Source: an uncultured Acidobacteriaceae bacterium
GTDB lineage: Bacteria; Acidobacteriota; Terriglobia; Terriglobales; Acidobacteriaceae
NCBI GenBank assembly: GCA_963765995.1
Contig: CAVXYT010000023.1
Location: 6,995 to 70,994 of the forward strand
Direction of reading: 5' to 3'
Length of the DNA: 64,000 bases
The notes under the pieces were generated by a model, which saw only the letters and a list, made by a program, of their open reading frames with translations, did not search any database and was not told the DNA's origin. Shown here one piece after another: positions 13,396 to 32,472 of this stretch (within the stretch, counting starts at the first letter, position 1; each line of letters starts with the position of its first letter). Made by a program: the position numbers and the translations under genes.

Positions 13396-13749
13396 ATGGT
13401 GTTGGCAAGGACGAGGCAGGCGGCCGGAGGCAGGCCGCATGGAACAGGGATGCAGGCGAAAACAGTCAGCCGCGGAAAAGCAAAGATGGCGGCGGAGGCG
13501 GACAAGGCCCTGGAAGACAACAGCAGCGAGATAACGAAAGGCTTGACCGAGAACGCGAAAAAGGGCAACGCAACGTGCACAAGGCTGCTACTTGCGCTCG
13601 CGGACGGGCTCATCAACTGCGAGAACGAAGTCGTAATGGAGCAGCTTTGCAGTTATGCCGAGAAGCTGGCTTTGGAGCCGGAATGGACTGGCGAAGAAGA
13701 CGATCTGGATGCGGAGACGAGCATCAGAGAACGCGAAGCGAAGGGTTGA
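13396..13749 (+). CDS. Small helical hypothetical protein at the head of the phage-like cluster (small terminase or regulator candidate)
   Basis: 117-aa charged helical ORF, co-oriented with and just upstream of the cluster; function is inferred from position only. Confidence 0.55.
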   Translation: MVLARTRQAAGGRPHGTGMQAKTVSRGKAKMAAEADKALEDNSSEITKGLTENAKKGNATCTRLLLALADGLINCENEVVMEQLCSYAEKLALEPEWTGEEDDLDAETSIREREAKG

Positions 13750-13822
13750 CGATTTGGCCCGCGTGAACAGTAACAGAGATGAACAAAGGCAGGTTCTTCC
13801 CCGGAAGAAAGAAGAGAGGCAG

Positions 13823-16800
13823 ATGAAGCTCACAAATCACAAGTGGTTGCGCGTCAACGGCTGGATTGGACTGTTGTTGATTGAGTTATGCCTGATGTTC
13901 CTGGGGTTAGCAAGCAAGGCCCCGGCGCAGGCGATCAGCACAACGACAGTTCAGGGAACGGTGTATCTGGCGAACGGTCAGCCTGCCACAGGAACACTCG
14001 TGGTGAGCTGGCCATCGTTTACCACGGCGAGCGGTCAGTTGGTGACGGCCGACAGCACGACGGTGACGATTGCGCCGGATGGATTTGTGAGCGTGAATCT
14101 GGCGCCTAATCTGGGGGCGACTCCGGCGGGGTTGTATTACACGGCGGTCTATTACATGAGCGATGGCTCGACTAACACCCAATACTGGGTGGTGCCGACG
14201 GGGACGCAAGCGACGCTGGGGCAGGTGCAGGCGCAGTTGATGCCGGCGACGCGGGCCGTGCAGGCAGTGAGCAAGGCCTATGTGGATCAGGCGATCGCGG
14301 AGCTAACGGGAAGCCTGCTGACGGGATCGGGAGGGACGCTGAGCGGGCCACTTACATTGTGCTGCGATCCGACGCTGCCGTTGCAAGCGGCGGACAAGCA
14401 CTATGTGGACGCAGCATCTGCCTTAGCCGTGCCATTGACAGGCGCGACAATGACCGGGCCGCTGACGAGCGTGAAATTAGGGGCTTTATACCAAGTGGAC
14501 CAGTTTTCCGGATCGGATTTCGGAGCCAAGCTGAGTGCGTGCCTGAGCGGGCTGAGCTCGACGAATGGCGGTACGTGCGATGCGCGCAATTTCACGGGCA
14601 CTCTGTCGATGGGATCGAACCTGACGATTTCGACGGCGAATGCGACGGTTCTGCTGCCTTGCGCGACGATTTCGACTGCCAATCAGTTGATGGTGGCGGC
14701 GGGCACGAGGAATGTGTCGCTGCGCGGGTGCGCATTGCGCGGGGCGAGCACGGCGAGCGGGAGCCAGGGCGGCACGGTGTTTCTGTATTCGGGAACGGGC
14801 GCGATGGTGCAGGTGGGAGACCCGACCTATGCGGCGGACACGATGGGTTTTCATCTGGACAATGTGGTGATTAACACTACGGCTTCGTCCAGCGGAGCGG
14901 CGCAAGGACTGGCGGCCTATCGCACGCAGGAGATGGACCTGGAAAGCTTGTATTTTCTTGGTAACTCGAATCAGACAGGAATGACACTGGACGGGACTGG
15001 GAATTATACCGGGGGAACGTTTCTCGACAACGAATTCAATGGCTACCAGACGGCGGTGAACGCCATCGGGCACCAGATATCGAATCCTGCCACGACAGAT
15101 TGGGTAAATGCGAGCACGTTTGTGCGGTTGCACATCGACTGCCCGACGAGCGGGGGAAGCCCGATCAGCGGGAGTTATGGGATCAACCTGCAACAGGGCG
15201 ATGGAAACACGTTCACGGGCGGAGACGTAGAGGGATGTTCGACGGCATTGCACCTGGGAGCGAACGCGCAAAACAACATGATCGTTGGACTGCGGAACGA
15301 AAACTCGACGAACCAGGTTGTGGCGGATGCGGGCAGTTCGTATAACAACTGGATGACCGGGGGAACGATGTTTACCGGTCAGTTGACCGACAACGGCACG
15401 CGCAACAGCTTCCTTGATGCATTTCACCGGAGTTTCAATGGCCTGAACGGCGATTGGTACGGAAGTCAGAAAGACGCGACGGTCACCAACCACTATCGCC
15501 TGGGGACAGGCGCAGGAAACGAGCGCGGCCTGCTGGACCGCTATCAAAGCGACTACGGCTACCGCTGGACGCTAGGCTTGAGCGACGCGACGGCCGGCGA
15601 GCAGTTTTACCAGATACTGGACGAACTGAACAATGTGTACCGGCTGTCGGTGGGCCAGAATAACAACGGGCAGTCGAGCACGAATAACCAGACGGTGATC
15701 AATGCGGCAGGAACCGGCGCTGTGGTGTTGAACGGATCGAACAACGCGGGGACCGGCGGAGTGGTGATCGGGTCGGGCGGCGCGAGCGAGACGACCGTGG
15801 CGACGATCGGCAACACCGGAAATGCGCAGTTCAACGGGACGCTGCAGGTGGGGGGCGCGTCAACTCTAGCGGGGACCGCAACAGTTAAGAACCAGGCCGA
15901 CGCGGAGATCGATGCGACGCTGTGGGCGGGACTGACGACGAGCCAGAAAGAGTCGTTCATTTACAAGGACTGGAACGGCAACAGCCAGTGGTACATGGTG
16001 AAGGACGGGAGCAATAACTGGGCGCTGAATTCGGCCACAGGCGGATTGGACAGTTTCAAGGCTTACCAGAGCGCCAACAGCGGCGACACGTACATCAACA
16101 CCTCGAACGCTTCCGGGGTCGTGCGCATCAACTACGAGACTGGATCAGGAACTCAGCTAAAAGTATATGGGGGGAACAGCAGCACTCTTTATGCCTCCTT
16201 CACGGGCGCGGCATTGATTCAATTTCCAGGGCTTGCGGCGAGCAGCGGCCACAACTGCCTACAGATCGATAACTCGGGCTATGTCACGAATACGGGGACG
16301 GCCTGCGGCAGCGGAAGCACCAGCGGGACGGTCAACACGGGGACCAGCGGGCAGATTGCCTATTACAGCGGAGCAGGCACAACCCTATCCGGCACAAACA
16401 CGGTTTCCGTAACGGCCGGAGGGACCGGGGCTTCCACGGCTTCAAGCGCGCTGGCGAACCTGGGCGGAGCATCGCTCGCAGGGGCGTCTTTTACGGGACC
16501 GGTGAGTGTTTCGACAACACTGTCTGTAGCAAACAACGCGAGCATCGGGCCGCGGTACGATGTGACGAACTCCGCGTTTGGCGCAGTAGGCAACGGCTCG
16601 ACAGATGACACGGCGGCGATTCAGGCAGCTTTTGACGCTTGTTATCACGGCGGTGTTGCTCCCTACGGCGGCGTGGTTGAGTTTCCCGGTCCTCACAGCT
16701 TTGTGGTCTCCTCCACGATTAACGCGCACGATTCCTGCCAGGTGGAGGGGGTTGTGGGAAGCTCGACCGTGGCCAACGCGCCGGTTCGGGTTCTATGGAA

Positions 16801-19720
16801 GGGCGCGGCAGCGGGAACAGTTTCGACGATTACCGGATACAGCGTAGCAGCGGGCGGCATTGCAACCTTCACAGCCGCAAACAGCCTGACCGCCGGGCAG
16901 TACGTCGATATTGAGGGATTGACTACTACGACAGGCACGACAATGAACCGGCTCATCGCGCCGGTTCTGGCTGCCGGACTATCCACGACGCAGTTTGAAA
17001 TACAGGCGAACGCATCGGCGACGACAACGACATCGGATTCCGGCACTGCAACGACCGTCAACGTGCTTCTTGTCTTTGATTCCAGTGCCAGATACGAACA
17101 GTCCCTCAAGAATATGGAGTTTGCCCTGGCATCCGGCGCGACTACGGGGTCGCTGCAAGTAGACGTGTACTACGGTAGCCGCGTTGATACCGGAACCCAC
17201 GTTGAGAATACCTGGGCGGAGCAAGCCACGATGTATGGTTACTACTTTTCCGGCGGGGGCATCAACGTAGACTTCGACAAAGGCTGGCGGTGCGACTCTG
17301 CCGGGATATCCTGCATCTATTGGCGGCTGTCAGGAGGGGATTCCTTTGGAATAGCCAACGGAACGGCAGACAACAGTCAAGGCGGCACGATGACGCCGAG
17401 CGGCGGCCTGTTAATGGTGGATGGCGCTCCCTGCGTCAACACCTCGTTCCTAAATTTCGAGTCACGGAATGTGCTGTTTGAAGTGAACTCTACGATTACC
17501 TCTGGCCTGGGCATTTTTACGCTGTATGATTGCCCATCAGCCGCACAGAATTTTAACCTGAACCTGGAAAGCACGAGAGAAAGCATAGCTGCGGCATCCA
17601 CCTCCGGTTTCAATTTCCCGGCTATCGTCATGTCTCCGCCGAGTGATTCAAAGCTCACCTTGAACATGGCCGATGGTGGATTCTACAATGGCACCGCGCC
17701 CAACACAACCACAAGGTTTGTTGGGATTCCGGCATTGATGAGAGACGATATAGGAGACGGCCCATTCCTGAGTTATGCTCCTTCGTTCAATAGCCTTGCG
17801 GCTGCTAATAATGCTCCGGAACCGATCTCTCTGATAGGCGATGTTGAGTTCAGCCAACTCTGGCAGCACGGGGTTGAGGCATCGGCATTTCTATTCTCAG
17901 ATACAGCGTACGCCGCGCTTCCCAACGGGACAACGCTGTACTCCGGCCAGGTGCTCGCGCCCCCAGCCTACTGGAACGGGGCCAACGGGAAGCGGTATGC
18001 TCTCGACGTTGTATACCAAACCGGCACGACCGGTTCCCCAAACGCCGGAGCTACCACCTGCACGGATACCGGCTATACAGGAACCATGACCTGCTCCAGC
18101 GCCACGGACTTGTCAGCCGGAAGCGTACTCACGCTAGGGAGCGAAAGCCAAATTACAGTTGCATGGGTGGACAACACGAATCCTTCGGCTGTTATCGTGC
18201 ATAACACAACTTCTTTGCCGCACACAACCAATTCGTCTGCTACTGCGTTGTCCTTCACCGCGCCGGTGCTGGGACCAGAGATTCAAATGCCGACGAAATC
18301 CGCAGCCGCGCCTTCTGCTTTGGCATGGTCGCAGGGAGACTTCGAGCAGAACTCCAGCGCGGTGGCGAATGGTATCTGCGGATGGGTCAATGTGTCAGCC
18401 GGTACGCCGGGAACCTGGACGGCCATTCCGTGCGCCAATAGCAGCGGGCAGATTACAGCGTCTCAGATCGCGCCCGCGTCTCTTCAGGGAACCGATTCAA
18501 AGATTCTTACAGCCGGGACAGTATCGGGCACGGGAGCAGCTCTCTGCACAGACAGCAATGGAGGCGCAACTACTTCCGGCTGCTCCGGGGGCTCCGGGGC
18601 ACCTGCCAATACACCGTCCTGGCTTCAGTATCTTGGCAGCGGAGCGGATGGCTCGTATGAATACAGTTCTACCGGAAGCTGCTCGACGAGTCCGACACAT
18701 TGCGTGACAAGCTGCACTTCGTCAGCGCCGTGTTCGATGGCCGGCGGCGAAATGATCACTACTAATTTTCAAGTGGATTCCGGGGCGTACATCTATGACA
18801 ACATTGCCAGCACGGCAGGGCTAACCATTCATTCACAGGGAGCTTGCAACATCTACGGAACGATTCTGGTCAACGGAGCGAAGAGCACCTGGCCTGCCGG
18901 AAATAAAGGCGTCGGGGGCGGTCCTTCCGGCGGCTCAGGTGGAGGCACCGCGGCGGGTACGGCAGGAACCGCGACTTATCCTACGATTGCCAACACAGGT
19001 TTAGGGAACACATCTGGCGGCACAGCCGGGGCTGCAAGTGGCGGCAACGGTGGAAACGGGACCGCGCCGAGCGCAAATTTTCAAAGATCGGTCACGAACG
19101 CCGGAATTGGCGGAATGGATGGGATGTATCTCACTGGAGCAGCCGGGGTGCAGGGCGGAAGCACTGGCGGCGCGGGCGGTGAAGGTGGTCAAGGACTGGT
19201 TATGATGTGTGCCACGATGAACGGCACAGGCGGCGTCATCGACGCAAGCGGCGCTTATGGGATGCCCCCAGCCGCAAACTCGACTGGGGCAGGAAGCGGC
19301 GGCGGCGGCGGAGTTGTGCTTCTATCCTCGCAAGCTGCTGTTACAAACTGGCCCACAGTTTATGTTGCGGGCGGACCTGGGGGATTGGTCACCGTGCCGG
19401 AAGCCCTGGCAACAGGCGGCGCCTGCACCTCTCAGCCGAAGGCCACTCTCGGCGTTACCAGCGGGGCGTTCAGCGGAACCTGCACGGTGGCGCAAGCGGG
19501 GGCCGGTTGCGGCACGGGCGCAGGCATTACATGGAATATTGCCGGTGGCGGCGGAACGGCGGGAACGGCTGTCATCAACCCAACTTGGAGCAGCGGCACA
19601 CTGGCAAGCTGCACGGTAACGCCGGGTACAAGCACAGGCTATACGGCAGCGACTTACACGACTGCGGGAAAGGGCGGCGACGGCGCGACAGGCTGGTACG
19701 CGGAGTTTGCGGGGTGGTAG
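13823..19720 (+). CDS. Giant tail fibre/tailspike-like protein with two predicted beta-helix regions, Gly-rich C-terminus and N-terminal signal-like peptide
   Basis: About 1965 aa from ATG 13823; fibre-type SKAYVD and AADKHYVD motifs; pectate_lyase_3-type FGAVGNGSTDDTAAIQAAFD; Asn/Gly/Thr-rich repeats; GG-rich tail. Confidence 0.7.
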   Translation: MKLTNHKWLRVNGWIGLLLIELCLMFLGLASKAPAQAISTTTVQGTVYLANGQPATGTLVVSWPSFTTASGQLVTADSTTVTIAPDGFVSVNLAPNLGATPAGLYYTAVYYMSDGSTNTQYWVVPTGTQATLGQVQAQLMPATRAVQAVSKAYVDQAIAELTGSLLTGSGGTLSGPLTLCCDPTLPLQAADKHYVDAASALAVPLTGATMTGPLTSVKLGALYQVDQFSGSDFGAKLSACLSGLSSTNGGTCDARNFTGTLSMGSNLTISTANATVLLPCATISTANQLMVAAGTRNVSLRGCALRGASTASGSQGGTVFLYSGTGAMVQVGDPTYAADTMGFHLDNVVINTTASSSGAAQGLAAYRTQEMDLESLYFLGNSNQTGMTLDGTGNYTGGTFLDNEFNGYQTAVNAIGHQISNPATTDWVNASTFVRLHIDCPTSGGSPISGSYGINLQQGDGNTFTGGDVEGCSTALHLGANAQNNMIVGLRNENSTNQVVADAGSSYNNWMTGGTMFTGQLTDNGTRNSFLDAFHRSFNGLNGDWYGSQKDATVTNHYRLGTGAGNERGLLDRYQSDYGYRWTLGLSDATAGEQFYQILDELNNVYRLSVGQNNNGQSSTNNQTVINAAGTGAVVLNGSNNAGTGGVVIGSGGASETTVATIGNTGNAQFNGTLQVGGASTLAGTATVKNQADAEIDATLWAGLTTSQKESFIYKDWNGNSQWYMVKDGSNNWALNSATGGLDSFKAYQSANSGDTYINTSNASGVVRINYETGSGTQLKVYGGNSSTLYASFTGAALIQFPGLAASSGHNCLQIDNSGYVTNTGTACGSGSTSGTVNTGTSGQIAYYSGAGTTLSGTNTVSVTAGGTGASTASSALANLGGASLAGASFTGPVSVSTTLSVANNASIGPRYDVTNSAFGAVGNGSTDDTAAIQAAFDACYHGGVAPYGGVVEFPGPHSFVVSSTINAHDSCQVEGVVGSSTVANAPVRVLWKGAAAGTVSTITGYSVAAGGIATFTAANSLTAGQYVDIEGLTTTTGTTMNRLIAPVLAAGLSTTQFEIQANASATTTTSDSGTATTVNVLLVFDSSARYEQSLKNMEFALASGATTGSLQVDVYYGSRVDTGTHVENTWAEQATMYGYYFSGGGINVDFDKGWRCDSAGISCIYWRLSGGDSFGIANGTADNSQGGTMTPSGGLLMVDGAPCVNTSFLNFESRNVLFEVNSTITSGLGIFTLYDCPSAAQNFNLNLESTRESIAAASTSGFNFPAIVMSPPSDSKLTLNMADGGFYNGTAPNTTTRFVGIPALMRDDIGDGPFLSYAPSFNSLAAANNAPEPISLIGDVEFSQLWQHGVEASAFLFSDTAYAALPNGTTLYSGQVLAPPAYWNGANGKRYALDVVYQTGTTGSPNAGATTCTDTGYTGTMTCSSATDLSAGSVLTLGSESQITVAWVDNTNPSAVIVHNTTSLPHTTNSSATALSFTAPVLGPEIQMPTKSAAAPSALAWSQGDFEQNSSAVANGICGWVNVSAGTPGTWTAIPCANSSGQITASQIAPASLQGTDSKILTAGTVSGTGAALCTDSNGGATTSGCSGGSGAPANTPSWLQYLGSGADGSYEYSSTGSCSTSPTHCVTSCTSSAPCSMAGGEMITTNFQVDSGAYIYDNIASTAGLTIHSQGACNIYGTILVNGAKSTWPAGNKGVGGGPSGGSGGGTAAGTAGTATYPTIANTGLGNTSGGTAGAASGGNGGNGTAPSANFQRSVTNAGIGGMDGMYLTGAAGVQGGSTGGAGGEGGQGLVMMCATMNGTGGVIDASGAYGMPPAANSTGAGSGGGGGVVLLSSQAAVTNWPTVYVAGGPGGLVTVPEALATGGACTSQPKATLGVTSGAFSGTCTVAQAGAGCGTGAGITWNIAGGGGTAGTAVINPTWSSGTLASCTVTPGTSTGYTAATYTTAGKGGDGATGWYAEFAGW

Positions 19721-21401: not shown

Positions 21402-21557
21402 TGGTCAGGGATCAGGGGTCAGGGGTCAGGGGTCAGGGGTCAGGGGTCAGATGAATTGTTCGCGCCATTTTCGGGATGTCAAGCATTTCTTCAGAAGATC
21501 AATCTGCTCGCGCCATCGAAGAGAAACTGATCACTGACCACTGTTCACTGTTCACTG
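21401..21557. repeat. Inverted heptamer-repeat arms between terminase and kinase genes
   Basis: GTGGTCA GGGATCA (GGGGTCA)x5 at 21401-21449; TGATCAC TGACCAC TGTTCAC TGTTCAC at 21528-21555. Confidence 0.85.
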
Positions 21558-21571
21558 TCAACGCTTAGAAT
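21544..21571 (+). promoter_or_regulatory. Candidate sigma70 promoter for the kinase/DUF3037 pair
   Basis: TTCACT-N16-TAGAAT, the -35 lying inside the heptamer arm; GGGGGA Shine-Dalgarno before TTG 21607. Confidence 0.45.
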
Positions 21572-21606
21572 TCGATTGTGGCTGTGGACGCGGCGGGGGA
21601 ACGGGC

Positions 21607-22479: not shown

Positions 22480-22504
22480 AACGAGGCCAGGCGACAGCCA
22501 GATC

Positions 22505-23380: not shown

Positions 23381-23385
23381 GGACA

Positions 23386-23567: not shown

Positions 23568-23579
23568 TGGCGAAGATGA

Positions 23580-23615: not shown

Positions 23616-23635
23616 GGGGCGGCGGGAAAAGGAAG

Positions 23636-25410: not shown

Positions 25411-25425
25411 CAAAAACAGTTCACT

Positions 25426-25570
25426 GTTGTCAGTTGTCAGTTCTCAGTCATTGGTTCACAGCAAGCCATCGATAGAGAGCCGTGGAGAAGTCGCGTCTCG
25501 ATAGCAGCTAACTGTAACTGATCGCTGGAAGCTGACAACTGATCACTGATCACTGAGAACTGACAACTGA
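25426..25570. repeat. Inverted heptamer-repeat arms between protease and scaffold genes
   Basis: GTTGTCA GTTGTCA GTTCTCA at 25426-25446; TGACAAC TGATCAC TGATCAC TGAGAAC TGACAAC at 25533-25567. Confidence 0.85.
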
Positions 25571-25583
25571 AGAAAGGAATGAA

Positions 25584-25982
25584 ATGGAAAACAAAGAGCA
25601 AGAGATTACGGAGCGGCTGGAAGCCGCGACGACCCTGCTGGAGCGGACACTGAGCTGGCTTGAGGAGCGGCAAGGCGTCTTGACCGGCGAAGTGGAGAGG
25701 ATTTCGGCGACCGTCGAGCAGGGCCGGCGGGAGGCGGAACTGGCGGAGAAGCTGGCCGCCGCCGAACGGGAGTTGGCCGAGGTGAAGGCTGGGGCTGCGC
25801 AAAATGTGTTGAACCCGCTGCGCAGGACGTTGCCCTCGACAACCAGCGAGATGCTGGCCAAGCACGGCATCGGCGAGGGCCCGGTGGACGTGCGGACCCT
25901 GGATGCGGCACTGGCCGGGCTGAGCCTGGAACAGCGCATCGCGGTCAAGAGCCAACTACTGCGGGCAGGCGCAATCGCATAA
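25584..25982 (+). CDS. Coiled-coil scaffold-like protein
   Basis: Glu/Ala/Leu/Arg heptad pattern; between protease and capsid genes. Confidence 0.55.
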   Translation: MENKEQEITERLEAATTLLERTLSWLEERQGVLTGEVERISATVEQGRREAELAEKLAAAERELAEVKAGAAQNVLNPLRRTLPSTTSEMLAKHGIGEGPVDVRTLDAALAGLSLEQRIAVKSQLLRAGAIA

Positions 25983-25987
25983 AAGCA

Positions 25988-26008
25988 GTTTTCAGTTGTC
26001 AGTGATCA
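25988..26008. repeat. Heptamer repeat arm before the capsid gene
   Basis: GTTTTCA GTTGTCA GTGATCA. Confidence 0.75.
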
Positions 26009-26045
26009 CTCAAGCAACGGCCCCATGGAGGGGGCGGAGAAGCCT

Positions 26046-27014
26046 ATGAACGCAACCTTTGCAGACATTCACGCGGCAGCAGACTATATCGGGCCGGGCG
26101 CTATCGAAGTTCCGTTGTATCAGACCGAAATTTTCGACATCTGCCGGCGTTCGAGCCCCTTCGGGCAGCGCATCAAGCAGGTTCCGGCGACCGGGCATCC
26201 GTCGCGGTTCTTCGAGGAGACGGCGATTCCGAATCCGGGAACGGCCGGCTTTGTGAATCCGCGCAGCATCGCGCCTACGGTGGTAAGCCCGACGCGCGTG
26301 GAGCGCAGCGTGCCGCTGAAGGCAATCGTTTCGCAGATCAACTACAACCTCTTCGACATCGAGCTGGGCGACCAGCAGAAGCAGTTTGCCTATCTCCAGG
26401 CCAAAGACCTGGTGGATACGGTGAGCGGCGTGATGGTGGCTCATGACGTGGCCTTGTGGAACGGCAACGACACCAGCCTGAGCTCGCCGACGACCACGCA
26501 GTACATGGGCGTGATTCCGCAGATTGTGGCGGGCGGCCTCACGACGACCATCGGCACGACGGCATCAATCGTGGATGGAATCAAGTCGGCTGTGGCGCAG
26601 ATGGTAGCCAATAACGGCTTCCATGTTCGGCCCACGGCGATCTACGCCAACCCCGTGCTGCTGGACCTGATCGACCGGGAGATGAAGACCGAGTTCAACG
26701 TGGTGCTGAATACCGACAACATCACGGGCGGTATTCGGGTGAAGATGCTTTCGACGCAGGCGGGCGATCTGCCGCTGATTCCGGACTGGAGCCTGAGTTA
26801 CACGGGCACGCCGGGCTCGGGCACGGCGGTTTTGCCGGCCTACATCGTGACCGAGGATCTGATCGAGTACCACTGGCTCGGCGATCCGACGCCGCGCATC
26901 TTCCAACTGGGACTGCCGAACTCGCTGACTTACCAGTATGTCGCGGTCAAATTCGGCGCGCCGGTGGTGAAGGGCGCCAACTACGCGCACTACCAGGTTC
27001 TGGTGGACCGGTAG
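26046..27014 (+). CDS. Major capsid protein (HK97 fold, SU10-like)
   Basis: 322 aa, beta-rich; DVALWNG, PTAIYANP, STQAGDLPLIPD; syntenic position portal-protease-scaffold-capsid. Confidence 0.8.
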   Translation: MNATFADIHAAADYIGPGAIEVPLYQTEIFDICRRSSPFGQRIKQVPATGHPSRFFEETAIPNPGTAGFVNPRSIAPTVVSPTRVERSVPLKAIVSQINYNLFDIELGDQQKQFAYLQAKDLVDTVSGVMVAHDVALWNGNDTSLSSPTTTQYMGVIPQIVAGGLTTTIGTTASIVDGIKSAVAQMVANNGFHVRPTAIYANPVLLDLIDREMKTEFNVVLNTDNITGGIRVKMLSTQAGDLPLIPDWSLSYTGTPGSGTAVLPAYIVTEDLIEYHWLGDPTPRIFQLGLPNSLTYQYVAVKFGAPVVKGANYAHYQVLVDR

Positions 27015-27023
27015 ACAACGGCA

Positions 27024-27117
27024 GTGATCAGTGAACAGTGGTCAGTGAACAGTAACAACTGACCGCTGTTCACTGCGTGCCGGAGTTTTGTTCTGATCAC
27101 TGACCACTGACAACTGA
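27024..27117. repeat. Inverted heptamer-repeat arms between capsid and neck genes
   Basis: GTGATCA GTGAACA GTGGTCA GTGAACA at 27024-27051; TGATCAC TGACCAC TGACAAC at 27094-27114. Confidence 0.85.
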
Positions 27118-27129
27118 AGGAAGGATCTT

Positions 27130-27753
27130 ATGGCATATCTGCAGCCAGCGGATTATCAGAATTATGGCTTGCCGGCAGGCACGACGGCGGATTGGATTAC
27201 GGCCGCCACGGCATTGATCAACAGCTACTGCAGGCGGCCAGACCTGAACGTGATCCAGTACATGGAGCGGTTGCGGCTGACCAGCGGATCGCAGACGATG
27301 TTGTTGAGCTATCTTCCATTGGCGCTTCTGGGAACGGCTACAACGCCGATAGTGAGCATCGAGGGCCGTTATGCAAGACCGCGGCGCGGCGAGTTTCCGA
27401 ACCAGCCGCTTCTGGAGATCGCGTTGGCGTTTTCGCTGCCAGGGCAGTGGACGGCGATCGATCCTAACTCCGTAGACTACGACCCCAATACCGGGGAGCT
27501 TACGCTGCCATGGAATGTGCTGGGGCTGCCTTACAACGAGGTGGCGGTGACTTATACGGCGGGGCTGGCGACGATTAGCGACGACGTGAAGACGGCGTGC
27601 GCGCAGATTGTCCGGAATGCGCAGTCCACGCCGGCTCTGAACGCAAGCAAGACCAAGATCGACACGATGCAGATGCAGTATTTCTCGAGTTCGCTGGTGG
27701 ACGAAACAGTGCAGGCCTGGCTGCGTCCCTACGTGGCGAACAGGCTGGGGTGA
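27130..27753 (+). CDS. Head-tail connector (adaptor) protein
   Basis: MAYL...ATALINSYCRR and VAVTYTAG...ISDDVKTACAQIV...L.PY pattern of gp6/gp15-like adaptors. Confidence 0.75.
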   Translation: MAYLQPADYQNYGLPAGTTADWITAATALINSYCRRPDLNVIQYMERLRLTSGSQTMLLSYLPLALLGTATTPIVSIEGRYARPRRGEFPNQPLLEIALAFSLPGQWTAIDPNSVDYDPNTGELTLPWNVLGLPYNEVAVTYTAGLATISDDVKTACAQIVRNAQSTPALNASKTKIDTMQMQYFSSSLVDETVQAWLRPYVANRLG

Positions 27754-27756
27754 AGG

Positions 27757-28191
27757 ATGAGCGATACGGCAGCGCGCAACCCTGTGGGAGCGCCGCGGAT
27801 GCTGGCCGATGCCCTGCTGCGAAGCGTGACAGGAACGACGGCCCTTCTGCGGGTGACGGGCGCAAATACGGATAGCAGTCAGTCCGAGGTGGGGCTGGTG
27901 GCAACGGCTTTTGCCGAAGTGGTGATAAGCCCGGTGGTTATGCGCAAGCTGCGGCCTACCTGGCAGGAGAATGGCGAGTCAAAGTGGGAGCTGCTGGTTT
28001 CGGCGACTGGTGTGGAACAACAGGTGAATGCGCTGGACCTGGCATCGGCCCAGTCTCTGTTTGCGATGACTCTGGCGATTACGGTAGCGGGACAGGATTA
28101 TCTGATTGAGTCGATTGGCGCAAACGAAGCCTTCGGCCAGGTGTATCTCTACCGGTTGCTGTTGCGGGAAGCAAGGCAGCAGGCAGTGTGA
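27757..28191 (+). CDS. Putative head-closure (stopper) protein
   Basis: 144 aa beta-rich ORF ending GQDYLIESIG...YLYRLLL; position after adaptor. Confidence 0.5.
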   Translation: MSDTAARNPVGAPRMLADALLRSVTGTTALLRVTGANTDSSQSEVGLVATAFAEVVISPVVMRKLRPTWQENGESKWELLVSATGVEQQVNALDLASAQSLFAMTLAITVAGQDYLIESIGANEAFGQVYLYRLLLREARQQAV

Positions 28192-28196
28192 GAGCA

Positions 28197-28372
28197 GGGA
28201 TCAGGGGTCAGGGATCAGGGGTCTTGATGCGTGATCAATGGCCAAAACCGTGTTTCCGACCCAATCGCGGCTTTTTGTCAACGAACATTGACCCGGAAAG
28301 GTGAGTGGGAAAGCAAGGGAAGTTGATCAAGGAGAGGTTTTCTGATCCCTGATCCCTGACCCCTGATTCCTG
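28197..28372. repeat. Inverted heptamer-repeat arms before the tail genes
   Basis: GGGATCA GGGGTCA GGGATCA at 28197-28217; TGATCCC TGATCCC TGACCCC TGATTCC at 28343-28370. Confidence 0.85.
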
Positions 28373-28379
28373 TCTTCTT

Positions 28380-28865
28380 ATGCAAAATGCGAAAGATTCG
28401 TTTTATATGGCACTGCGCACGCGGCTGGCGGCGATCAATCCAGAGCGGACGATTCTGCTGCGCGGAGCGGTAAGGCCAGGGATTCTGGCGGAGGAAGCCG
28501 AGGCTCCCTTCAGCCAGCTTCCCAACGATGTGTTTGTTCTGCGCTGGCTGGGCCTGGGCGTCGATTTTGATCTCGGGTCCATGATGGTGGCCGAGCAGTG
28601 CGAGGTGATCTATCAGACCTGCGGAACGCAAAGCTTCAGCGGGTTGGACCGCGGCCGGTCGCTGAGCGAGTTGGACGAGGAACTTGTGGCGATGATGCAG
28701 CCTTTCTACACCGCCAAGCTTAACTTCACGGCAACGCCGCCGGCGGCGATGCTGACGAAGGTGTTCTGGGATGAGCCGGAGTTTGCGCCGATCGTGGTCC
28801 AACGGGACCAGCTGAGCCGTTCCGCAAAAGTGATGGTTTACAGCTACCAGGAGCAGGGGGAGTAA
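28380..28865 (+). CDS. Putative tail terminator/completion protein
   Basis: 161 aa, N-terminal helix SFYMALRTRLAA then alpha/beta pattern; position between neck and tube genes. Confidence 0.45.
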   Translation: MQNAKDSFYMALRTRLAAINPERTILLRGAVRPGILAEEAEAPFSQLPNDVFVLRWLGLGVDFDLGSMMVAEQCEVIYQTCGTQSFSGLDRGRSLSELDEELVAMMQPFYTAKLNFTATPPAAMLTKVFWDEPEFAPIVVQRDQLSRSAKVMVYSYQEQGE

Positions 28866-29840
28866 ATGGCGACGACTTGGTTTTCGGCTCCCGCACCGGT
28901 GGCGCGGCGGGTTCGAGGGTATTTTGCGCCGGTGAACCGGACGGTGCAGACGCCAGTGCTCTTCGACCCGGCGGAGCAGGGCAGTTTCAGCCTGAGCGCT
29001 CCGCCGGCTCCATGGATCAGCCTGGGTTGGATTCAACAGTTCACACGCAAGCAGGGAAGCAAGACCGCCGCTGTGTTGACGGGCATTCCCGCTGGAACGC
29101 TGGAGCAGGTGCGCGAGACGCTTGAGGCGCAGGTGAGCTTTGAATTTCTGAGCTGGACCAAACTGACCATGGCTCTGGCGACGGGCTCGCAACACATGAA
29201 CCTGCTGGCTCCCGCAAGCGGAGCGACTCTGGCGGCGGATGGAGCAACGGCTGCCGCGGCAGTTACGGTGCTGAGCGGATCGACGGCTACATCCATCGTG
29301 CTGGCCTCGGCCGATGCGGCTACTTTTTCTGCTGGTTCGATCATTGCGCTGGACGCGGATTACACGGGGCAGACCGGATATGTGGGCGCGCCTGTATCTG
29401 GAGCGTATGTGCGCACTGCATTAACGGATGTAAATTACATCCGGCGCGTGACCTTTAACGTCGCATTGGTGTCTGCGGTGACTTCCACCGGCTTAACACT
29501 TGCCGAGCCGTTACCGGGCGGAGCTCCTGCGGCCGGTTCCAGGTTGCAGGCAGTCACAGGATTTGTGGATCGCGAGGGCGGCTGTTTCTATCAAGAGTGG
29601 TCGGCGCTGTTTGTGATGGAGGGCAGCCAGGGGGAACGGATCTTCTTCCACTATCCACGGCTGCAGACCATGGCCAGCGCACAAGAAACCGCATTGCCGT
29701 TGGACGGCAAGCAGAAGGCCGGGCTGGCGCGGGTGTTGCTCAAAGGCCAGTTTCTGGCGCTGCCCGTGACCGATCCTCTGGATGGGGAGCGAGTGGTCTG
29801 TTACCGGAGTTTCCTGCCCGCGGCACACGCTCTGGTGTAG
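28866..29840 (+). CDS. Putative tail tube protein with inserted domain
   Basis: Beta-rich N- and C-terminal parts (WISLGWIQQF, QVSFEFL, RIFFHYPRL) around an Ala/Thr/Ser-rich insert; synteny. Confidence 0.5.
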   Translation: MATTWFSAPAPVARRVRGYFAPVNRTVQTPVLFDPAEQGSFSLSAPPAPWISLGWIQQFTRKQGSKTAAVLTGIPAGTLEQVRETLEAQVSFEFLSWTKLTMALATGSQHMNLLAPASGATLAADGATAAAAVTVLSGSTATSIVLASADAATFSAGSIIALDADYTGQTGYVGAPVSGAYVRTALTDVNYIRRVTFNVALVSAVTSTGLTLAEPLPGGAPAAGSRLQAVTGFVDREGGCFYQEWSALFVMEGSQGERIFFHYPRLQTMASAQETALPLDGKQKAGLARVLLKGQFLALPVTDPLDGERVVCYRSFLPAAHALV

Positions 29841-29890: not shown

Positions 29891-32206
29891 ATGAAGATCA
29901 CGATCAACGGGCAAGACTACACGGCCGCGCTCGATGCAGTGCGGCCGTTGACGATCGAGCGAAAGCTGAACGCGCCCTCCCTGTGTCAACTGTGTCTGAG
30001 CCTGCCAACCAACGGAAGTTTGACGTCTCCCCTGCGCTATCAGTCTCTCGCCGTAGTGGGAGACGACGGAACATATTATTTTACGGGGTACATCGCGGTA
30101 AGTCCTCTGCCGGAATATGCAGGCTTTGCGATGGAGGGCCCGCGCTATCGGATTGCGATTCAGGCTTTGAGCGACGAGCTTTTGCTGGACCAAAACCTGA
30201 TGCCTCCCAGTACTGGCGCAACGGGAGAAAGCGCGGGGACGCTGATGACGGCGCTGGTAGCCCACGCGGGAGGCGCCGGGCTATCGACTCTGGGGCTTTC
30301 GCTCAGCGCGGCGGTGAGCAACTTTGCCCCCGACAAGGGCGCGCCGTGGAGCAAGAGCGCCGGACAGGTGGCAAACATGGCGCGGGCCGCGTATCGCGCG
30401 GTCAATGGAGCGCTCACAGCCTCCTCTGTGCCCGGCACGGTGCATCCACTGAATGAGACGGACGGCAGCTTGAACCTGGCAACCCTGGCCTTCACAGCCA
30501 GCGTCAAACGCGCTCTGGCGAACGATGTGACGGTGTGCGGAGAGCATGAGCCGGTTGCTTATGTTACCGAATACTTTCTGGGTGACGGAGTAACAACACA
30601 GTTTTATCTGGCGCAAGATCCGTTCTTTCCCGCCACGTCCAAGTCCATCATCATCCGCGAACTCTTCAACGAATCGCAGATCAACCAGTGCGTGTGGGGA
30701 GTTACAGGCGGGGCAGGTTACCTTACGCTGGGAGCCGGCGGGCTGGCGATAAACGGCGGCAATGGAATCGACGGGGACACGCTGCTCGCCTGGCTTGACC
30801 CTGTGGAGATGGGCGGAACTCTGCTGCTGGAGGCTGTGGGAGTAACTCTTGCACTGGGCAGCACAGGGGCATTGGCCGGCTTCTTTGTCGGCATGGACAG
30901 GCAGACTACGTGCGTCGCGGGCTTTCAGGTGACAGCGCAGCCAGGCACCGGGGCAGTCACATTGCAGCCACTCATCAATGGCAGTCCGGTGGGAACGACT
31001 TATGCGATCAATCCAGCCTATCAATACACACTGCGCGTCCGGGTGCATTGCCCAGAGAACGAACGGGCGCTGGCGATCTATCGCTCCTTTGGAGATAGCG
31101 GGGCAATTACCTCCGGCGGCGAGTTGAATGCGGCTCCGGGCATGGTGCAGATGGAGATCCAGCAGTTTGTTGACGGAGTGGGAGGGATGCCGGTAACTCT
31201 GTATGACGGAGCTATCTCCAACCTTCCCGCGGCTTGCAATGTGGTGGCGGCGAGCAGCATCAATCTGATTGGAACCATGCGTGCGCTCAACTTGACCAAT
31301 CTGGGCTCGGGCTGGGTGGTGAGCACACCGCCAAGCGGCGGTCCCTACACTCGGCGAGTTGGCACGACGGCCGAGGCGGCCGAGTGCTATCTGGAGCGCA
31401 CGGGCAAGGTGGTATTTTATACCGGGTATACGCCGGTAGCGGGCGAGCAGATTGCGGTGAGTTACCGCACTGTGGGCAGGGCAGTAGGTCGAGCCGTCAA
31501 CACCGCCAGCCAGGCGGCGTTGGCCGCGGCGGGAATGCCGACCGAGGCCGCGTGGATCGGCTCGGTGACCAATCCCCCGGCGCGCAGTTCCGCGGACTGC
31601 CGCAATGCGGCTCTGGTGATGGAGCAGGCGGCGGCCAGCGTGAGCGCGCTGTGGAGCGGCACTTACAAGGGGAACCGGTTGAGCTTTGCCGCCGATGTCT
31701 GGCCGGGCGATGCGCTGTTGCTGAACGCGCCTTCAACCAGCCTGGACGCGCAGGTGGTGGTGCGGACTGTCAAGGTGAGTTACAGCGCGAGCTATCCCGA
31801 TCTGGTGGAGTATGCCATTGTCTTCGCCAACGACTGGGCCGACGATCTGGCGATCAAGACCAGCGCGACGGTACCCGCTGATGCGTGGCTTCCGGCGCCG
31901 ATTGCGCCGACCGTGCTGGCGAATCTGAACAGCCTCACGGTGACTACGCTGAATGGAACCACGTTGACAATCAATGCCGGTGTTACTCCGCCCACAGGCG
32001 GAGGATTCGAGGTGCGGTTGCGAGACTTTGACTTCATGGCGGGCACGGACCCGGCGCTGGTGATGCGGTCGACAACTCCGGCCATGACTTTCTCTCGCAT
32101 CAGCGCCAACGACCGGTTCTATATCCGGATGTACGACGGCTCGACGCCGCCAAACTACTCGGAGTTTTCAACGGCACTATTCATCAACCTGCCGCTTGGA
32201 TCGTAA
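29891..32206 (+). CDS. Tail tip/baseplate hub-like protein with C-terminal beta domains
   Basis: MKITINGQDY...LTIERKLNAPSLCQL hub-like start, FLGDGVTTQFYL, 771 aa beta-rich; last large gene of the cluster. Confidence 0.6.
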   Translation: MKITINGQDYTAALDAVRPLTIERKLNAPSLCQLCLSLPTNGSLTSPLRYQSLAVVGDDGTYYFTGYIAVSPLPEYAGFAMEGPRYRIAIQALSDELLLDQNLMPPSTGATGESAGTLMTALVAHAGGAGLSTLGLSLSAAVSNFAPDKGAPWSKSAGQVANMARAAYRAVNGALTASSVPGTVHPLNETDGSLNLATLAFTASVKRALANDVTVCGEHEPVAYVTEYFLGDGVTTQFYLAQDPFFPATSKSIIIRELFNESQINQCVWGVTGGAGYLTLGAGGLAINGGNGIDGDTLLAWLDPVEMGGTLLLEAVGVTLALGSTGALAGFFVGMDRQTTCVAGFQVTAQPGTGAVTLQPLINGSPVGTTYAINPAYQYTLRVRVHCPENERALAIYRSFGDSGAITSGGELNAAPGMVQMEIQQFVDGVGGMPVTLYDGAISNLPAACNVVAASSINLIGTMRALNLTNLGSGWVVSTPPSGGPYTRRVGTTAEAAECYLERTGKVVFYTGYTPVAGEQIAVSYRTVGRAVGRAVNTASQAALAAAGMPTEAAWIGSVTNPPARSSADCRNAALVMEQAAASVSALWSGTYKGNRLSFAADVWPGDALLLNAPSTSLDAQVVVRTVKVSYSASYPDLVEYAIVFANDWADDLAIKTSATVPADAWLPAPIAPTVLANLNSLTVTTLNGTTLTINAGVTPPTGGGFEVRLRDFDFMAGTDPALVMRSTTPAMTFSRISANDRFYIRMYDGSTPPNYSEFSTALFINLPLGS

Positions 32207-32250
32207 ACGATATTTTTTGAACGATGGTGGATGGGGTCCGGCATATGCGG

Positions 32251-32472
32251 ATGATGAATGAATTCGAAGCGCAGGTGCTGAGCGACTTGAGCGTGCTGAA
32301 GACGCAGATGACCGGCCTGATGGGCGACGGCAACGGCGGGCGGCTGGCCGATCTGGAGAGGCGCATGGAGCGGCACGAGCAAAACTGGCAGCGCGCCAAA
32401 GGATTTCTAGCGGCGGTCAGCGTGCTGCTCGCAGTGGTGGAAGTGGCCTTCGAGGCTTGGCACCGGCACTGA
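32251..32472 (+). CDS. Small coiled-coil plus C-terminal TM protein (holin/XhlA-like)
   Basis: RLADLERRMERHE coiled coil, one hydrophobic helix GFLAAVSVLLAVVEVAF; end of cluster. Confidence 0.5.
   Translation: MMNEFEAQVLSDLSVLKTQMTGLMGDGNGGRLADLERRMERHEQNWQRAKGFLAAVSVLLAVVEVAFEAWHRH

What the first reader, a model, noticed from the sequence alone, without database searches (positions are those of the whole stretch)
13396..32472. Domesticated gene-transfer-agent-like head-tail cluster between iaaA and typA
Seen: about 19 kb of co-oriented open ORFs giving terminase, portal, protease, scaffold, capsid, adaptor, stopper, tail-like proteins and a holin-like gene. I find no integrase, excisionase, repressor, replication gene, endolysin, tape measure or att-type direct repeat. 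Both flanks are core genes, codon style matches the host, and three host repeat families have entered its spacers and one gene without breaking frames. Established: RcGTA, CcGTA and BaGTA are host-retained phage structural modules that cannot replicate themselves, package host DNA and draw some functions from other loci. Inference: a vertically inherited GTA-like particle (or another domesticated capsid-tail machine) in an Acidobacteria-type host, a phylum for which I know of no characterised GTA.
Basis: partly seen in the sequence, partly recalled or inferred. Interest (0 to 1): 0.92.

Follow-up and report, generated by a model that had tools for sequence, protein, structure and literature searches.

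The report
Domesticated phage particle genes in Acidobacteria
A set of phage head and short-tail genes has become a fixed, strongly conserved and transcribed part of the chromosome in hundreds of soil and peat Acidobacteria species, so it probably builds a DNA-packaging particle that serves the bacterium (gene transfer is the leading guess), but no one has yet shown what the particle does.

Summary
The cluster is real. TerL, portal, an HK97-fold capsid protein, a head-tail adaptor and a gp27/Mu-gp44-type tail hub are confirmed. A protease-like and a scaffold-like gene are supported by homology to one fused gene in a related siphophage. About 6 kb of the reported 19 kb is a giant secreted protein.

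No integrase, repressor, replication gene, tRNA, tape measure or recognisable tail tube was found.

At least 579 species genomes of Terriglobales carry the capsid gene. In the 80 best loci the genes keep the same order between housekeeping genes (typA, purEK).
- dN/dS is 0.07-0.14 for every cluster gene, against 0.067 for typA.
- Synonymous divergence tracks typA (rho 0.72).
- TerL catalytic motifs are invariant.
- Capsid transcripts in peat metatranscriptomes are at or above typA level.

GTA function is plausible but untested. One clade lacks TerL at the locus, and there is no sequence relationship to RcGTA. I found no publication calling it a GTA; earlier papers probably listed it as a "provirus". 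The cultured strain Occallatibacter riparius carries it, so it can be tested.

The parts
13396..13749 (+). g01, a small ORF (117 aa) upstream of the giant gene. Doubtful member; no evidence that it is a small terminase.
   Evidence: No family hit. Only one weak orthologue, in L052 between the asparaginase gene and TerL (38% identity).
13823..19720 (+). g02, a giant secreted protein (1965 aa from MKLTNHKW). It has a conserved N-terminal domain, a variable remainder, and a possible beta-helix depolymerase motif (GSTDDTAAIQAAFDA). It is always found directly upstream of TerL.
   Evidence: No Pfam, PHROG or PADLOC hit. The signal peptide is conserved in orthologues. Adjacency to TerL is kept in the permuted variant. 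Faint pectate-lyase hit, E 0.93. dN/dS 0.12.
19794..21401 (+). Large terminase (TerL): ATPase plus RNaseH-like nuclease.
   Evidence: PHROG 2 E 4.5e-23 and Terminase_6C. Walker A-like KARQxGxTT, HCSE, EST, and nuclease D377, E432, D515/D516 are 98-100% conserved in 54 sequences of 50-89% identity. dN/dS 0.14.
21607..22479 (+). HipA-like Ser/Thr kinase (toxin of a HipAD / DS-6 / PDC-M66 pair).
   Evidence: PF20613 HipA_2 E 2e-11. PADLOC PDC-M66A E 8e-10. Present in all loci. dN/dS 0.115.
22505..23380 (+). DUF3037 protein (antitoxin/partner of the kinase).
   Evidence: PF11236 E 4e-18. PDC-M66B E 3e-6. Relatives are experimentally validated as a defence TA pair (PMC12548924, PMC13092281).
23578..23607 (+). 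Terminator-like hairpin followed by a T run, between the TA pair and portal.
   Evidence: 13-bp stem followed by TTTGTTTT. It lies inside the longest portal ORF, so the real portal start is further downstream.
23576..24913 (+). Portal protein. The true start is probably downstream: orthologue alignments begin at residue 27-58.
   Evidence: PF04860 E 1e-52. TIGR01537 portal_HK97 below cutoff. Profile E 1e-112 to the phage L107 portal.
24910..25410 (+). g07, a protease-like head maturation protein (candidate).
   Evidence: No library hit. Profile E 3e-34 to the N-part of the 391-aa gene between portal and capsid in phage contig L107. Invariant His, Ser and Asp residues. dN/dS 0.078.
25584..25982 (+). 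g08, a coiled-coil scaffold-like protein (candidate).
   Evidence: Position between g07 and the capsid gene. Weak match (E 9e-4) to the same 391-aa L107 protein. Only coiled-coil type hits otherwise.
26025..27014 (+). Major capsid protein, HK97 fold. It belongs to a narrow, un-named sequence family.
   Evidence: AlphaFold pLDDT 77, pTM 0.72. Foldseek hits to SPO1, HK97, D3 and encapsulins, E ~1e-12, probability 1.0. 87-97% identity in 80 species. dN/dS 0.078. Transcribed in peat.
27130..27753 (+). Head-tail adaptor.
   Evidence: PHROG 442 E 5e-18. Profile E 4e-18 to the L107 224-aa protein.
27757..28191 (+). g11, a connector-position protein (a stopper/head-closure role is inferred from position only).
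   Evidence: No hit anywhere. Length is conserved at 144 aa, also in O. riparius. dN/dS 0.09.
28380..28865 (+). g12, a connector/tail-terminator-position protein (inferred from position only).
   Evidence: No hit. 161 aa in all species. Its stop abuts the g13 start. dN/dS 0.12.
28866..29840 (+). g13, a 324-aa protein directly upstream of the hub. It sits in the distal-tail or tube position; its identity is undecided.
   Evidence: No PDB, PHROG, Pfam or NCBIfam hit. Marginal hmmsearch E 0.0055 to the L107 putative tube protein, but hhalign probability only 1.4%.
29891..32206 (+). g14, the tail hub (Tal-type). It has an N-terminal gp27/Mu gp44/VgrG-like domain, a central ConA-like lectin/glucanase sandwich, and a C-terminal domain.
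   Evidence: AlphaFold pLDDT 76.8. Foldseek PDB hits 1wru, 3cdd, 7b5h and T5 7zhj, E 1e-7 to 1e-5. BFVD siphophage minor tail proteins, E down to 1.6e-18.
32224..32472 (+). g15, an 82-aa protein with an N-terminal coiled coil and a C-terminal hydrophobic helix (holin/XhlA-like architecture).
   Evidence: Sequence. No family hit. 87% median identity, dN/dS 0.073.
21405..28373 (.). Paired heptad-repeat arrays, (NCAGNNN)n after a stop codon and (NNNCTGN)n before the next start. They occupy spacers 21405-21558, 23383-23570, 25430-25570, 25985-26005, 27021-27117 and 28194-28373. Four spacers fold into long stems.
   Evidence: 12 of the 15 arrays in the window lie here; shuffles give 0.7. 205 arrays in the cluster against 17 in the flanks across 53 other species. 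MFE z-scores -4.6 to -8.6.

Best explanation
This is a host-fixed ('domesticated') remnant of a siphophage structural module. It has been inherited vertically in Terriglobales (Acidobacteriota) and is kept by purifying selection.

Proposed working (inferred):
1. TerL, portal, a protease-like protein, a scaffold-like protein and an HK97-fold capsid protein build a head that packages DNA.
2. The adaptor and two small connector-position proteins close the head.
3. A stubby tail with no tape measure is attached, ending in g13 and a trimeric gp27-like hub (g14) that carries a lectin-like domain.
4. The small membrane protein g15 may help release.

The particle cannot propagate itself, because the locus has no replication, integration or regulatory genes. 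It is therefore most likely a host-serving DNA-carrying particle. Gene transfer (a GTA evolved independently of all known ones) is the leading candidate function.

Three other features are part of the conserved unit, but their roles are inferred only: the embedded HipA-like kinase/DUF3037 pair, the secreted giant protein upstream of TerL, and the hairpin-forming heptad repeats in the spacers. Possible roles are producer-cell arrest or stabilisation of the locus, matrix degradation or receptor, and differential expression of the operon.

My sub-confidences: domesticated and vertically inherited 0.85; makes DNA-filled particles 0.6; acts as a GTA 0.35.
For: Anatomy:
- TerL, portal and adaptor are identified by profiles.
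- The capsid protein has the HK97 fold.
- The hub has the gp27/gp44 fold and is siphophage Tal-like.
- g07 and g08 are homologous to a fused portal-to-capsid gene in phage contig L107. That contig is a true siphophage with TerL, portal, a capsid protein 40% identical to this one, and a 3709-aa tape measure.

No mobility genes: no integrase, repressor, replication gene or tRNA.

Distribution: at least 579 species genomes. Gene order is the same in 80 loci between housekeeping genes. A complete copy exists in the cultured strain Occallatibacter riparius. A second deep clade has a hub only 31% identical. A rearranged variant keeps every gene.

Selection: dN/dS is 0.07-0.14 in all genes, against 0.067 for typA. 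dS co-varies with typA (rho 0.72; 0.48 against 0.47 in the nearest relative). Mantel r = 0.43, 0 of 2000 permutations.

DNA handling is under selection: TerL ATPase and nuclease motifs are 98-100% conserved.

Expression: capsid transcripts occur in many peat and permafrost metatranscriptomes. In four of them capsid depth is equal to or above typA depth, and 5-10 times the portal/g07 depth.
Against: - No particle, packaged DNA or transfer has been observed.
- No small terminase was identified.
- No tape measure and no recognisable tail tube were found, so DNA delivery is not assured.
- About 11-14 of the 80 loci lack TerL (and g02) at the locus, yet keep the other genes at dN/dS 0.05-0.18. I could not check whether TerL lies elsewhere in those genomes.
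- The giant protein next to TerL has a signal peptide, which is odd for a virion part.
- The embedded validated defence pair allows a defence-centred reading.
- Population-level capsid RNA at housekeeping level is higher than expected if only a rare subpopulation produces particles. However, contig depth is a poor measure of expression.
- There is no sequence relationship to RcGTA families.
Confidence: 0.55

Rival explanations
1. Defence-centred element. The locus is kept because it protects against phages. The HipA-like kinase/DUF3037 toxin-antitoxin pair aborts infection. The phage-derived structural proteins act as sensors, decoys or interference factors, for example by mis-assembling or hijacking the capsids of related siphophages, as satellites do. 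The particle is not a gene-transfer vehicle.
For: The pair matches PADLOC PDC-M66A/B. Relatives (DS-6/HipAD; the Retron-Sda1 operon) defend E. coli experimentally. It is embedded in every copy and moves with the TerL-portal block in the rearranged variant. The related siphophage (L107) and the large phage contigs carrying a capsid homologue (L100/L101) came from environmental metagenomes; their hosts are not known. Steady capsid transcription fits a standing defence better than a rare altruistic burst.
Against: A two-gene TA system does not need 11 or more structural genes. Yet all of them, including the TerL catalytic residues, are under equally strong constraint. No known defence system has this make-up, and none of the other genes matches a PADLOC model.
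Confidence: 0.15
2. Killer particle, that is, a phage-like bacteriocin of the PBSX kind. A defective phage particle is released by lysis, adsorbs to competitors through the hub's lectin domain and kills them. The DNA it packages is incidental.
For: It is a head-plus-tail particle with no replication genes. It has a small XhlA/holin-like membrane protein. The hub carries a carbohydrate-binding-type domain, and a possible depolymerase is encoded alongside.
Against: No sheath, tube, tape measure or other killing device was recognised. PBSX-type elements are usually strain-variable in their receptor-binding parts, whereas the hub here evolves under dN/dS 0.14 with no hypervariable end. No immunity gene is evident.
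Confidence: 0.1
3. Ordinary mobile or decaying element. This could be a cryptic prophage remnant kept only by toxin-antitoxin addiction or by chance. Or it could be an active satellite or phage that integrates site-specifically near typA and spreads horizontally.
For: Earlier studies listed widely shared 'proviruses' of Terriglobales that probably include this region (PMC11924767 group ii, PMC5900883). IMG/VR holds 21 contigs with it. Some loci have insertions, and one shows partial decay (L036, L025).
Against: There is no integrase, att site or tRNA. The left flank differs between clades without any sign of mobility genes. dS equals host dS. dN/dS is about 0.1 in every gene across at least 80 species, which neutral decay or addiction alone would not give. 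The IMG/VR contigs are host contigs of up to 55.8 kb (L086/L103) or short fragments holding the same cluster; the 74-214 kb contigs L100/L101 are phage contigs that share only the capsid gene.
Confidence: 0.05

Closest known systems
RcGTA-type gene transfer agents of Alphaproteobacteria (Rhodobacter capsulatus GTA, CcGTA)
   Same: A chromosomal, vertically inherited head-tail cluster derived from an HK97-like siphophage, about 13-15 kb, without replication or integration genes. It is under purifying selection, sits between core genes, and has a gp27-like hub at the tail tip. Some parts may be encoded elsewhere.
   Different: No detectable sequence homology beyond generic HK97-type portal and terminase; no NCBIfam GTA model matches. 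No tape measure, recognisable tube or small terminase. It carries an embedded kinase toxin-antitoxin pair and an adjacent secreted giant protein. TerL is missing from the locus in one clade. The host phylum is different. Function is untested.
Other independently evolved GTAs and viriforms (BaGTA, VSH-1, Dd1, VTA)
   Same: The same concept: a phage structural module exapted by a host lineage. This would be one more independent origin.
   Different: Unrelated genes and hosts. Those elements have experimental proof of DNA packaging and transfer.
PBSX-like defective prophages / phage-like bacteriocins of Bacillus
   Same: A non-replicating particle locus kept in the chromosome. It has a small XhlA-like membrane protein architecture and packages DNA without propagating.
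   Different: PBSX has a contractile tail with sheath, tube and tape measure, its own regulators and an endolysin. None of these is seen here.
Capsid-forming PICIs (cf-PICI satellites)
   Same: A compact module of TerL, portal, protease, capsid and connectors without a full tail.
   Different: cf-PICIs are mobile (integrase, replication, helper-phage control) and have no tail-tip genes. This locus has no mobility genes, does have a hub, and is vertically inherited.
HipAD / DS-6 / PADLOC PDC-M66 (HipA-like kinase + DUF3037)
   Same: g04 and g05 have the same two-domain, two-gene architecture.
   Different: Here the pair is a fixed internal component of a phage-derived structural operon rather than a stand-alone island gene pair. 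Its activity is untested.
Environmental siphophage contig L107 (capsid 40% identical)
   Same: It has the same portal, fused g07+g08, capsid and adaptor families in the same order. It probably represents the ancestral phage type.
   Different: It has its own unrelated TerL, DNA-metabolism genes, tail chaperone-position genes and a 3709-aa tape measure. It has no kinase pair.

Membership tests
Gene transfer agent (functional class) | Phage-like structural gene cluster in the chromosome that lacks the genes for its own replication, integration or lysogeny control. | tested here: met
   Pfam, PHROG and NCBIfam scans of all ORFs in 13.4-32.5 kb and of the flanks find none. No tRNA.
Gene transfer agent (functional class) | Vertical inheritance with the host lineage and purifying selection on the structural genes. 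| tested here: met
   Synteny in 80 species. dN/dS 0.07-0.14. dS tracks typA, rho 0.72. Mantel test 0 of 2000 permutations.
Gene transfer agent (functional class) | Particles are produced and released. | not testable with these tools
   Only transcription in metatranscriptomes is shown.
Gene transfer agent (functional class) | Particles package essentially random host DNA in pieces too small to carry the whole locus. | not testable with these tools
   TerL catalytic motifs are conserved, but the packaged DNA is unknown and no small terminase was found.
Gene transfer agent (functional class) | Delivery of the DNA into recipient cells, with recombination. | not testable with these tools
   A hub protein is present. 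No tube or tape measure was recognised.
RcGTA-like GTAs (alphaproteobacterial type) | Homology of the head-tail genes to the RcGTA g1-g15 families. | tested here: not met
   NCBIfam scan of 10 proteins gives only portal_HK97, below its cutoff. No GTA/TIGR0221x model matches.
RcGTA-like GTAs (alphaproteobacterial type) | Gene set includes a small terminase, tail tube, tape measure, distal tail protein, hub and megatron. | tested here: not met
   Only the hub was recognised. There is no ORF of tape-measure character between the adaptor and the hub.
HK97-type tailed-phage head module | HK97-fold capsid protein, portal (PF04860), and a TerL with ATPase and RNaseH-like nuclease. | tested here: met
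Temperate prophage (intact or recently decayed) | Integrase and att repeats, repressor/lysis-lysogeny genes, variable insertion, and genes decaying neutrally. | tested here: not met
   None of these genes was found. No long direct repeats bracket the cluster. Constraint is strong.
Capsid-forming PICI satellites | Integrase, a replication/primase module and helper-dependent regulation; a head genes-only cargo. | tested here: not met
   No integrase or replication genes. A tail hub is present.
HipAD / DS-6 / PDC-M66 defence pair | Adjacent HipA-family kinase and DUF3037 protein. | tested here: met
   PF20613 and PF11236. PDC-M66A/B.
HipAD / DS-6 / PDC-M66 defence pair | Kinase toxicity neutralised by the partner, and protection against phage. 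| not testable with these tools
   Shown for relatives only (PMC12548924, PMC13092281).
PBSX-like phage-like bacteriocin | Contractile tail (sheath, tube, tape measure, baseplate) and its own lysis cassette with an endolysin. | tested here: not met
   No such families in any scan. Only a small XhlA-like architecture, without a family hit.

The most novel reading that the evidence does not exclude
This is the first gene transfer agent of the phylum Acidobacteriota, and a sixth or later independent origin of GTAs. It would be a siphophage-derived particle that has lost its tube and tape measure and is fixed across Terriglobales. It would have its own kinase toxin-antitoxin switch, a co-inherited secreted depolymerase or receptor protein, and repeat-hairpin spacers that set gene dosage. 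If so, it would be a major route of DNA exchange among the dominant bacteria of acidic soils and peat, and a source of the 'microbial DNA' seen in soil viromes.
Probability: 0.3. Interest if true: 0.92.

Novelty: new variant of a known kind. Interest (0 to 1): 0.8.

Why it matters
Acidobacteriaceae and their relatives are among the most abundant and active bacteria in acidic soils, peat and thawing permafrost, yet almost nothing is known about how they exchange genes.

This phage-derived particle locus is as conserved as a translation factor, present in hundreds of their species and transcribed in the field. It is either a new, independently evolved gene transfer agent or a new kind of exapted capsid machine.

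Either answer bears on three things:
- how soil viromes are read, where such regions are routinely counted as proviruses and where much particle-protected DNA is microbial;
- the recurring question of why bacteria keep phage structural modules;
- the biology of HipA-type kinase defence pairs.

A cultured carrier, Occallatibacter riparius, makes the question directly testable.

Tried and rejected
- Exact-sequence lookup of the portal ORF found nothing, because the annotated start is too far upstream.
- Pfam, PHROG, PADLOC, NCBIfam and PDB-sequence searches gave no usable hit for g07, g11, g12, g13, g15 and the giant protein. This includes 36 divergent orthologues scanned one by one.
- The hint that g13 equals the tube protein of phage L107 (hmmsearch E 0.0055) was not upheld by hhalign (probability 1.4%).
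- A diverse capsid alignment could not be used to scan IMG/VR because it has no conserved stretch.
TerL depth is not comparable, because TerL is less conserved at the nucleotide level.
- Generic promoter and terminator scans were no better than shuffles.
- I rejected the idea that the giant protein is a virion tail fibre as the first choice, because of its conserved signal peptide.
- I rejected the encapsulin-type reading, despite encapsulin hits in Foldseek, because TerL, portal, adaptor and hub are present and constrained.
- Literature searches for a GTA in Acidobacteria or Acidobacteriota found none.

Full report
**What is in the window**

Between an Asparaginase_2 gene (11747-12808, minus strand) and typA (32504-34318, minus strand) lie fifteen co-oriented plus-strand ORFs.

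Profile searches identify four of them directly:
- a large terminase (19794-21401; PHROG 2 E 4.5e-23; Terminase_6C);
- a portal (23576-24913; PF04860 E 1e-52);
- a head-tail adaptor (27130-27753; PHROG 442 E 5e-18);
- unexpectedly, a HipA_2 kinase (21607-22479) and a DUF3037 protein (22505-23380) between terminase and portal.

The presumed capsid gene (26025-27014) matches no Pfam, PHROG or NCBIfam model. Its AlphaFold model, built on 37 sequences (pLDDT 77, pTM 0.72), matches HK97-fold capsid proteins of SPO1, HK97, D3 and many others at Foldseek probability 1.0.

The last large gene really starts at 29891 (MKITINGQDY). Its model (75 sequences, pLDDT 76.8) has three parts. The N-terminal ~250 residues match the central hub of Mu (gp44), MuSo2, contractile-injection spikes, VgrG and the T5 tail tip, with E 1e-7 to 1e-5. 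A ConA-like lectin/glucanase sandwich follows, then a C-terminal domain. Over its full length it resembles siphophage minor tail proteins, with E down to 1.6e-18.

The 166-aa and 132-aa genes between portal and capsid have no library hit. Their profiles match one 391-aa gene at the same position in a related phage contig (E 3e-34 and 9e-4). This is the usual protease-scaffold arrangement.

Three genes (27757-28191, 28380-28865, 28866-29840) remain unassigned despite every search available.

The final 82-aa gene encodes a coiled coil followed by a hydrophobic C-terminal helix. This is holin/XhlA-like in architecture only.

Nothing in the region or its flanks resembles an integrase, repressor, replication protein, endolysin, tape measure, sheath or tube. 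There is no tRNA.

- Six of the nineteen kilobases (13823-19720) are a single 1965-aa protein. Its N-terminal Sec signal peptide is conserved in orthologues. It has no family hit. The only fold hint is a pectate-lyase-type 'GSTDDTAAIQAAFDA' motif (PDB 5olp, E 0.93).
- The kinase/DUF3037 pair was missed. It matches PADLOC candidate system PDC-M66. Relatives (DS-6, 'HipAD', and the pair in the Retron-Sda1 operon) have been shown to be kinase-toxin/antitoxin anti-phage systems (PMC12548924, PMC13092281).
- The repeat said to have entered a gene lies in the g13-g14 spacer once the hub start is corrected.

**Is it inherited with the host?**

The capsid protein has more than 4000 database relatives. 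The best 120 clusters are all 88-93% identical. At 50% clustering the whole family collapses to 301 representatives. It is therefore a narrow family that is hugely represented in one lineage.

The best 80 are all Terracidiphilus, Acidobacteriaceae or Terriglobales.

In those 80 loci the genes from the kinase to the 82-aa gene are present in the same order, and TerL lies upstream in most of them. Gene lengths are nearly identical. typA, or purE-purK then typA, lies downstream.

The cultured strain Occallatibacter riparius (CP093313.1) has the complete set, followed by purE-purK.

Measured against the window:
- Every cluster gene has dN/dS of 0.07-0.14. typA has 0.067 and the asparaginase gene 0.115.
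- Cluster dS correlates with typA dS across 39 genomes (rho 0.72). In the nearest relatives it is equal (0.48 against 0.47; 0.51 against 0.52).
- Protein distance matrices of cluster and typA are correlated (Mantel r = 0.43; 0 of 2000 permutations).

A second deep clade of Terriglobales carries the same gene set with a hub only 31% identical.

A third variant has the block [giant gene-TerL-kinase-DUF3037-portal] moved to between g13 and the hub. It has lost no gene.

Only one locus (L036) shows clear partial decay, and a few have insertions.

None of the refuting outcomes was seen.

**Is DNA handling selected?**

In 54 TerL sequences of 50-89% identity, these motifs are 98-100% conserved: the Walker A-like KARQxGxTT, the HCSE and EST motifs, and nuclease residues D377, E432 and D515/D516.

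This argues for a DNA-packaging head rather than an empty shell. I therefore set aside the encapsulin hits among the fold matches.

**Is it expressed?**

Near-identical capsid 31-mers occur in many peat, permafrost and wetland metatranscriptomes.

In four of them:
- assembled-contig depth over the capsid gene (about 30-150, with peaks above 300) equals or exceeds that over typA (about 5-100), and the two genes are equally conserved;
- capsid depth is 5-10 times that over portal and g07.

Contig depth is a rough measure and sums over related strains. TerL cannot be compared fairly because it is less conserved at the nucleotide level.

**Where did it come from?**

An environmental 40-kb contig (L107) has a capsid protein 40% identical. 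It carries, in order: a TerL, a homologous portal, the fused g07+g08 gene, the capsid gene, a homologous adaptor, several small genes, a 282-aa gene in the tube position, two chaperone-position genes and a 3709-aa tape measure.

The ancestor was therefore most likely a long-tailed siphophage. The acidobacterial locus has lost the tape measure, and no tube can be recognised. What remains after the adaptor is two small connector-position proteins, g13 and the hub.

Whether g13 is a tube or a distal-tail protein is undecided. I infer a very short, non-contractile tail. This is inference from gene content only.

**Spacer repeats**

Arrays of three or more heptads with CAG in fixed phase occur 15 times in the window, against 0.7 in shuffles. 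Twelve of them lie in the cluster's spacers. Typically one array follows a stop codon and the complementary array precedes the next start.

Four spacers fold into long stems with z-scores of -4.6 to -8.6.

In 53 other species there are 205 such arrays inside the cluster span and 17 in the flanks, about 7-fold denser per kb.

They are therefore a conserved property of the operon, not random host repeats. A role in RNA processing, stability or attenuation would fit the higher capsid RNA, but that is speculation.

**Open problems**

1. Eleven to fourteen of the 80 loci have neither TerL nor the giant gene at the locus; an acetate/butyrate-kinase-type gene lies upstream instead. Within that clade the remaining genes still show dN/dS of 0.05-0.18. 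I could not search the rest of those genomes. TerL at a second locus would parallel the multi-locus RcGTA 'genome'. True absence would undercut DNA packaging as the function.
2. No small terminase was found.
3. The giant protein is tied to TerL in every arrangement but is secreted. A matrix-degrading enzyme or a surface receptor are guesses.
4. The embedded toxin-antitoxin pair could be a producer-cell switch, a stabiliser of the locus, or the main reason for retention. The last alone cannot explain constraint on all structural genes.

**Comparison with what is known**

Functionally and evolutionarily the locus looks like a gene transfer agent. It is a phage structural module without self-propagation genes, vertically inherited, under purifying selection, and set among core genes.

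It is not a member of the RcGTA family. No NCBIfam GTA model matches, and the tape measure, tube and small terminase are missing.

It is not a prophage, a cf-PICI satellite or a PBSX-type element by their defining features (see the membership table).

Earlier work probably saw this region. A gene-order-conserved group of 'proviruses' shared by Terriglobales, including Ca. Koribacter versatilis Ellin345 and Granulicella sp. WH15, is described in PMC11924767. Prophage clusters of Acidobacteria are described in PMC5900883. A peat-moss study noted a shared phage-like contig matching an Acidobacteriaceae genome and mentioned GTAs only as a general possibility (PMC12142844). I could not verify that these are the same element. 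I found no paper that proposes or tests a GTA in this phylum.

**Verdict**

My confidences:
- about 0.85 that this is a domesticated, vertically inherited phage-derived locus;
- about 0.6 that it makes DNA-filled particles;
- about 0.35 that those particles act as a GTA.

Defence-related and killer-particle functions are the main rivals.

It is a new variant of a known kind (an exapted phage particle, or viriform) in a phylum where none is characterised. A cultured carrier is available for decisive experiments.

Noticed in passing
window 21405-28373 (spacers); also 34376-34410 and 44171-44205: Heptad arrays (NCAGNNN)n and their complements bracket most intergenic spacers of the cluster and fold into long stems. 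They are conserved in position across species and about 7-fold enriched over the flanks. Two similar arrays lie outside the cluster (the typA-UDG spacer and near 44.2 kb).
   Followed up: partly
L100 and L101 (IMG/VR contigs of 74 kb and 214 kb), capsid homologue at 10001-10966: Large phage contigs carry a gene 68% identical to the capsid protein. It sits among DNA ligase, DprA-like, thymidylate synthase, polynucleotide kinase, CCA-adding enzyme and RNA ligase genes, not next to a portal or terminase. This may be a host-to-phage capture of the domesticated capsid gene.
   Followed up: partly
L046, L047, L049, L050, L062-L064, L068, L070, L073, L079 (upstream of the kinase gene): One clade has no TerL and no giant gene at the locus; an acetate/butyrate-kinase-like gene is the left neighbour. 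The other cluster genes there stay under dN/dS of 0.05-0.18.
   Followed up: partly
L103 and L106 (also L086, L088, L095, L104): A rearranged variant of the cluster: g07..g13, then giant gene-TerL-kinase-DUF3037-portal, then hub and g15. All genes are kept.
   Followed up: yes
window 32473-32503, compared with other loci (e.g. L039 16831-18087, L038 8842-9576): In about half of the related species purE and purK lie between the last cluster gene and typA. In this window they are absent and typA follows directly.
   Followed up: partly
window 34287-41351: Genes for DNA repair and recombination lie just beyond typA: a UDG-family glycosylase, recA (36220-37296), a PIN-domain protein and a UvrD-type helicase (38730-41351). 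The neighbourhood may be coincidental.
   Followed up: no
window 44921-64000: An exopolysaccharide/exosortase locus: EpsH exosortase (50900-51802), DUF3485 EpsI-type protein, a 777-aa TPR protein and a family 2 glycosyltransferase; the ORFs further downstream (about 52-64 kb) were not scanned, apart from 53679-54941, which had no hit. The giant cluster protein has no PEP-CTERM end.
   Followed up: no
window 53102-53221: Four to five tandem copies of a 24-nt unit (AAACCGGCTGCGCCGGACACGGCC) inside an ORF. They encode a proline/alanine-rich peptide repeat.
   Followed up: no
window 13307-13335: A strong terminator-like hairpin (13-bp stem plus T-rich tail) on the plus strand, immediately upstream of the small ORF g01, with no plus-strand gene before it.
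   Followed up: no
L036 8865-11535; L025 865-7112; L073 8752-10001; L010 3768-5456: Lineage-specific damage or insertions. L036 has a truncated g07 and a g10/g11 fusion-deletion and no TerL. L025 has about 6 kb inserted between DUF3037 and portal. L073 and L010 have 1-2 kb insertions. Many of these assemblies may be long-read (not checked), so some frameshifts may be sequencing errors.
   Followed up: no
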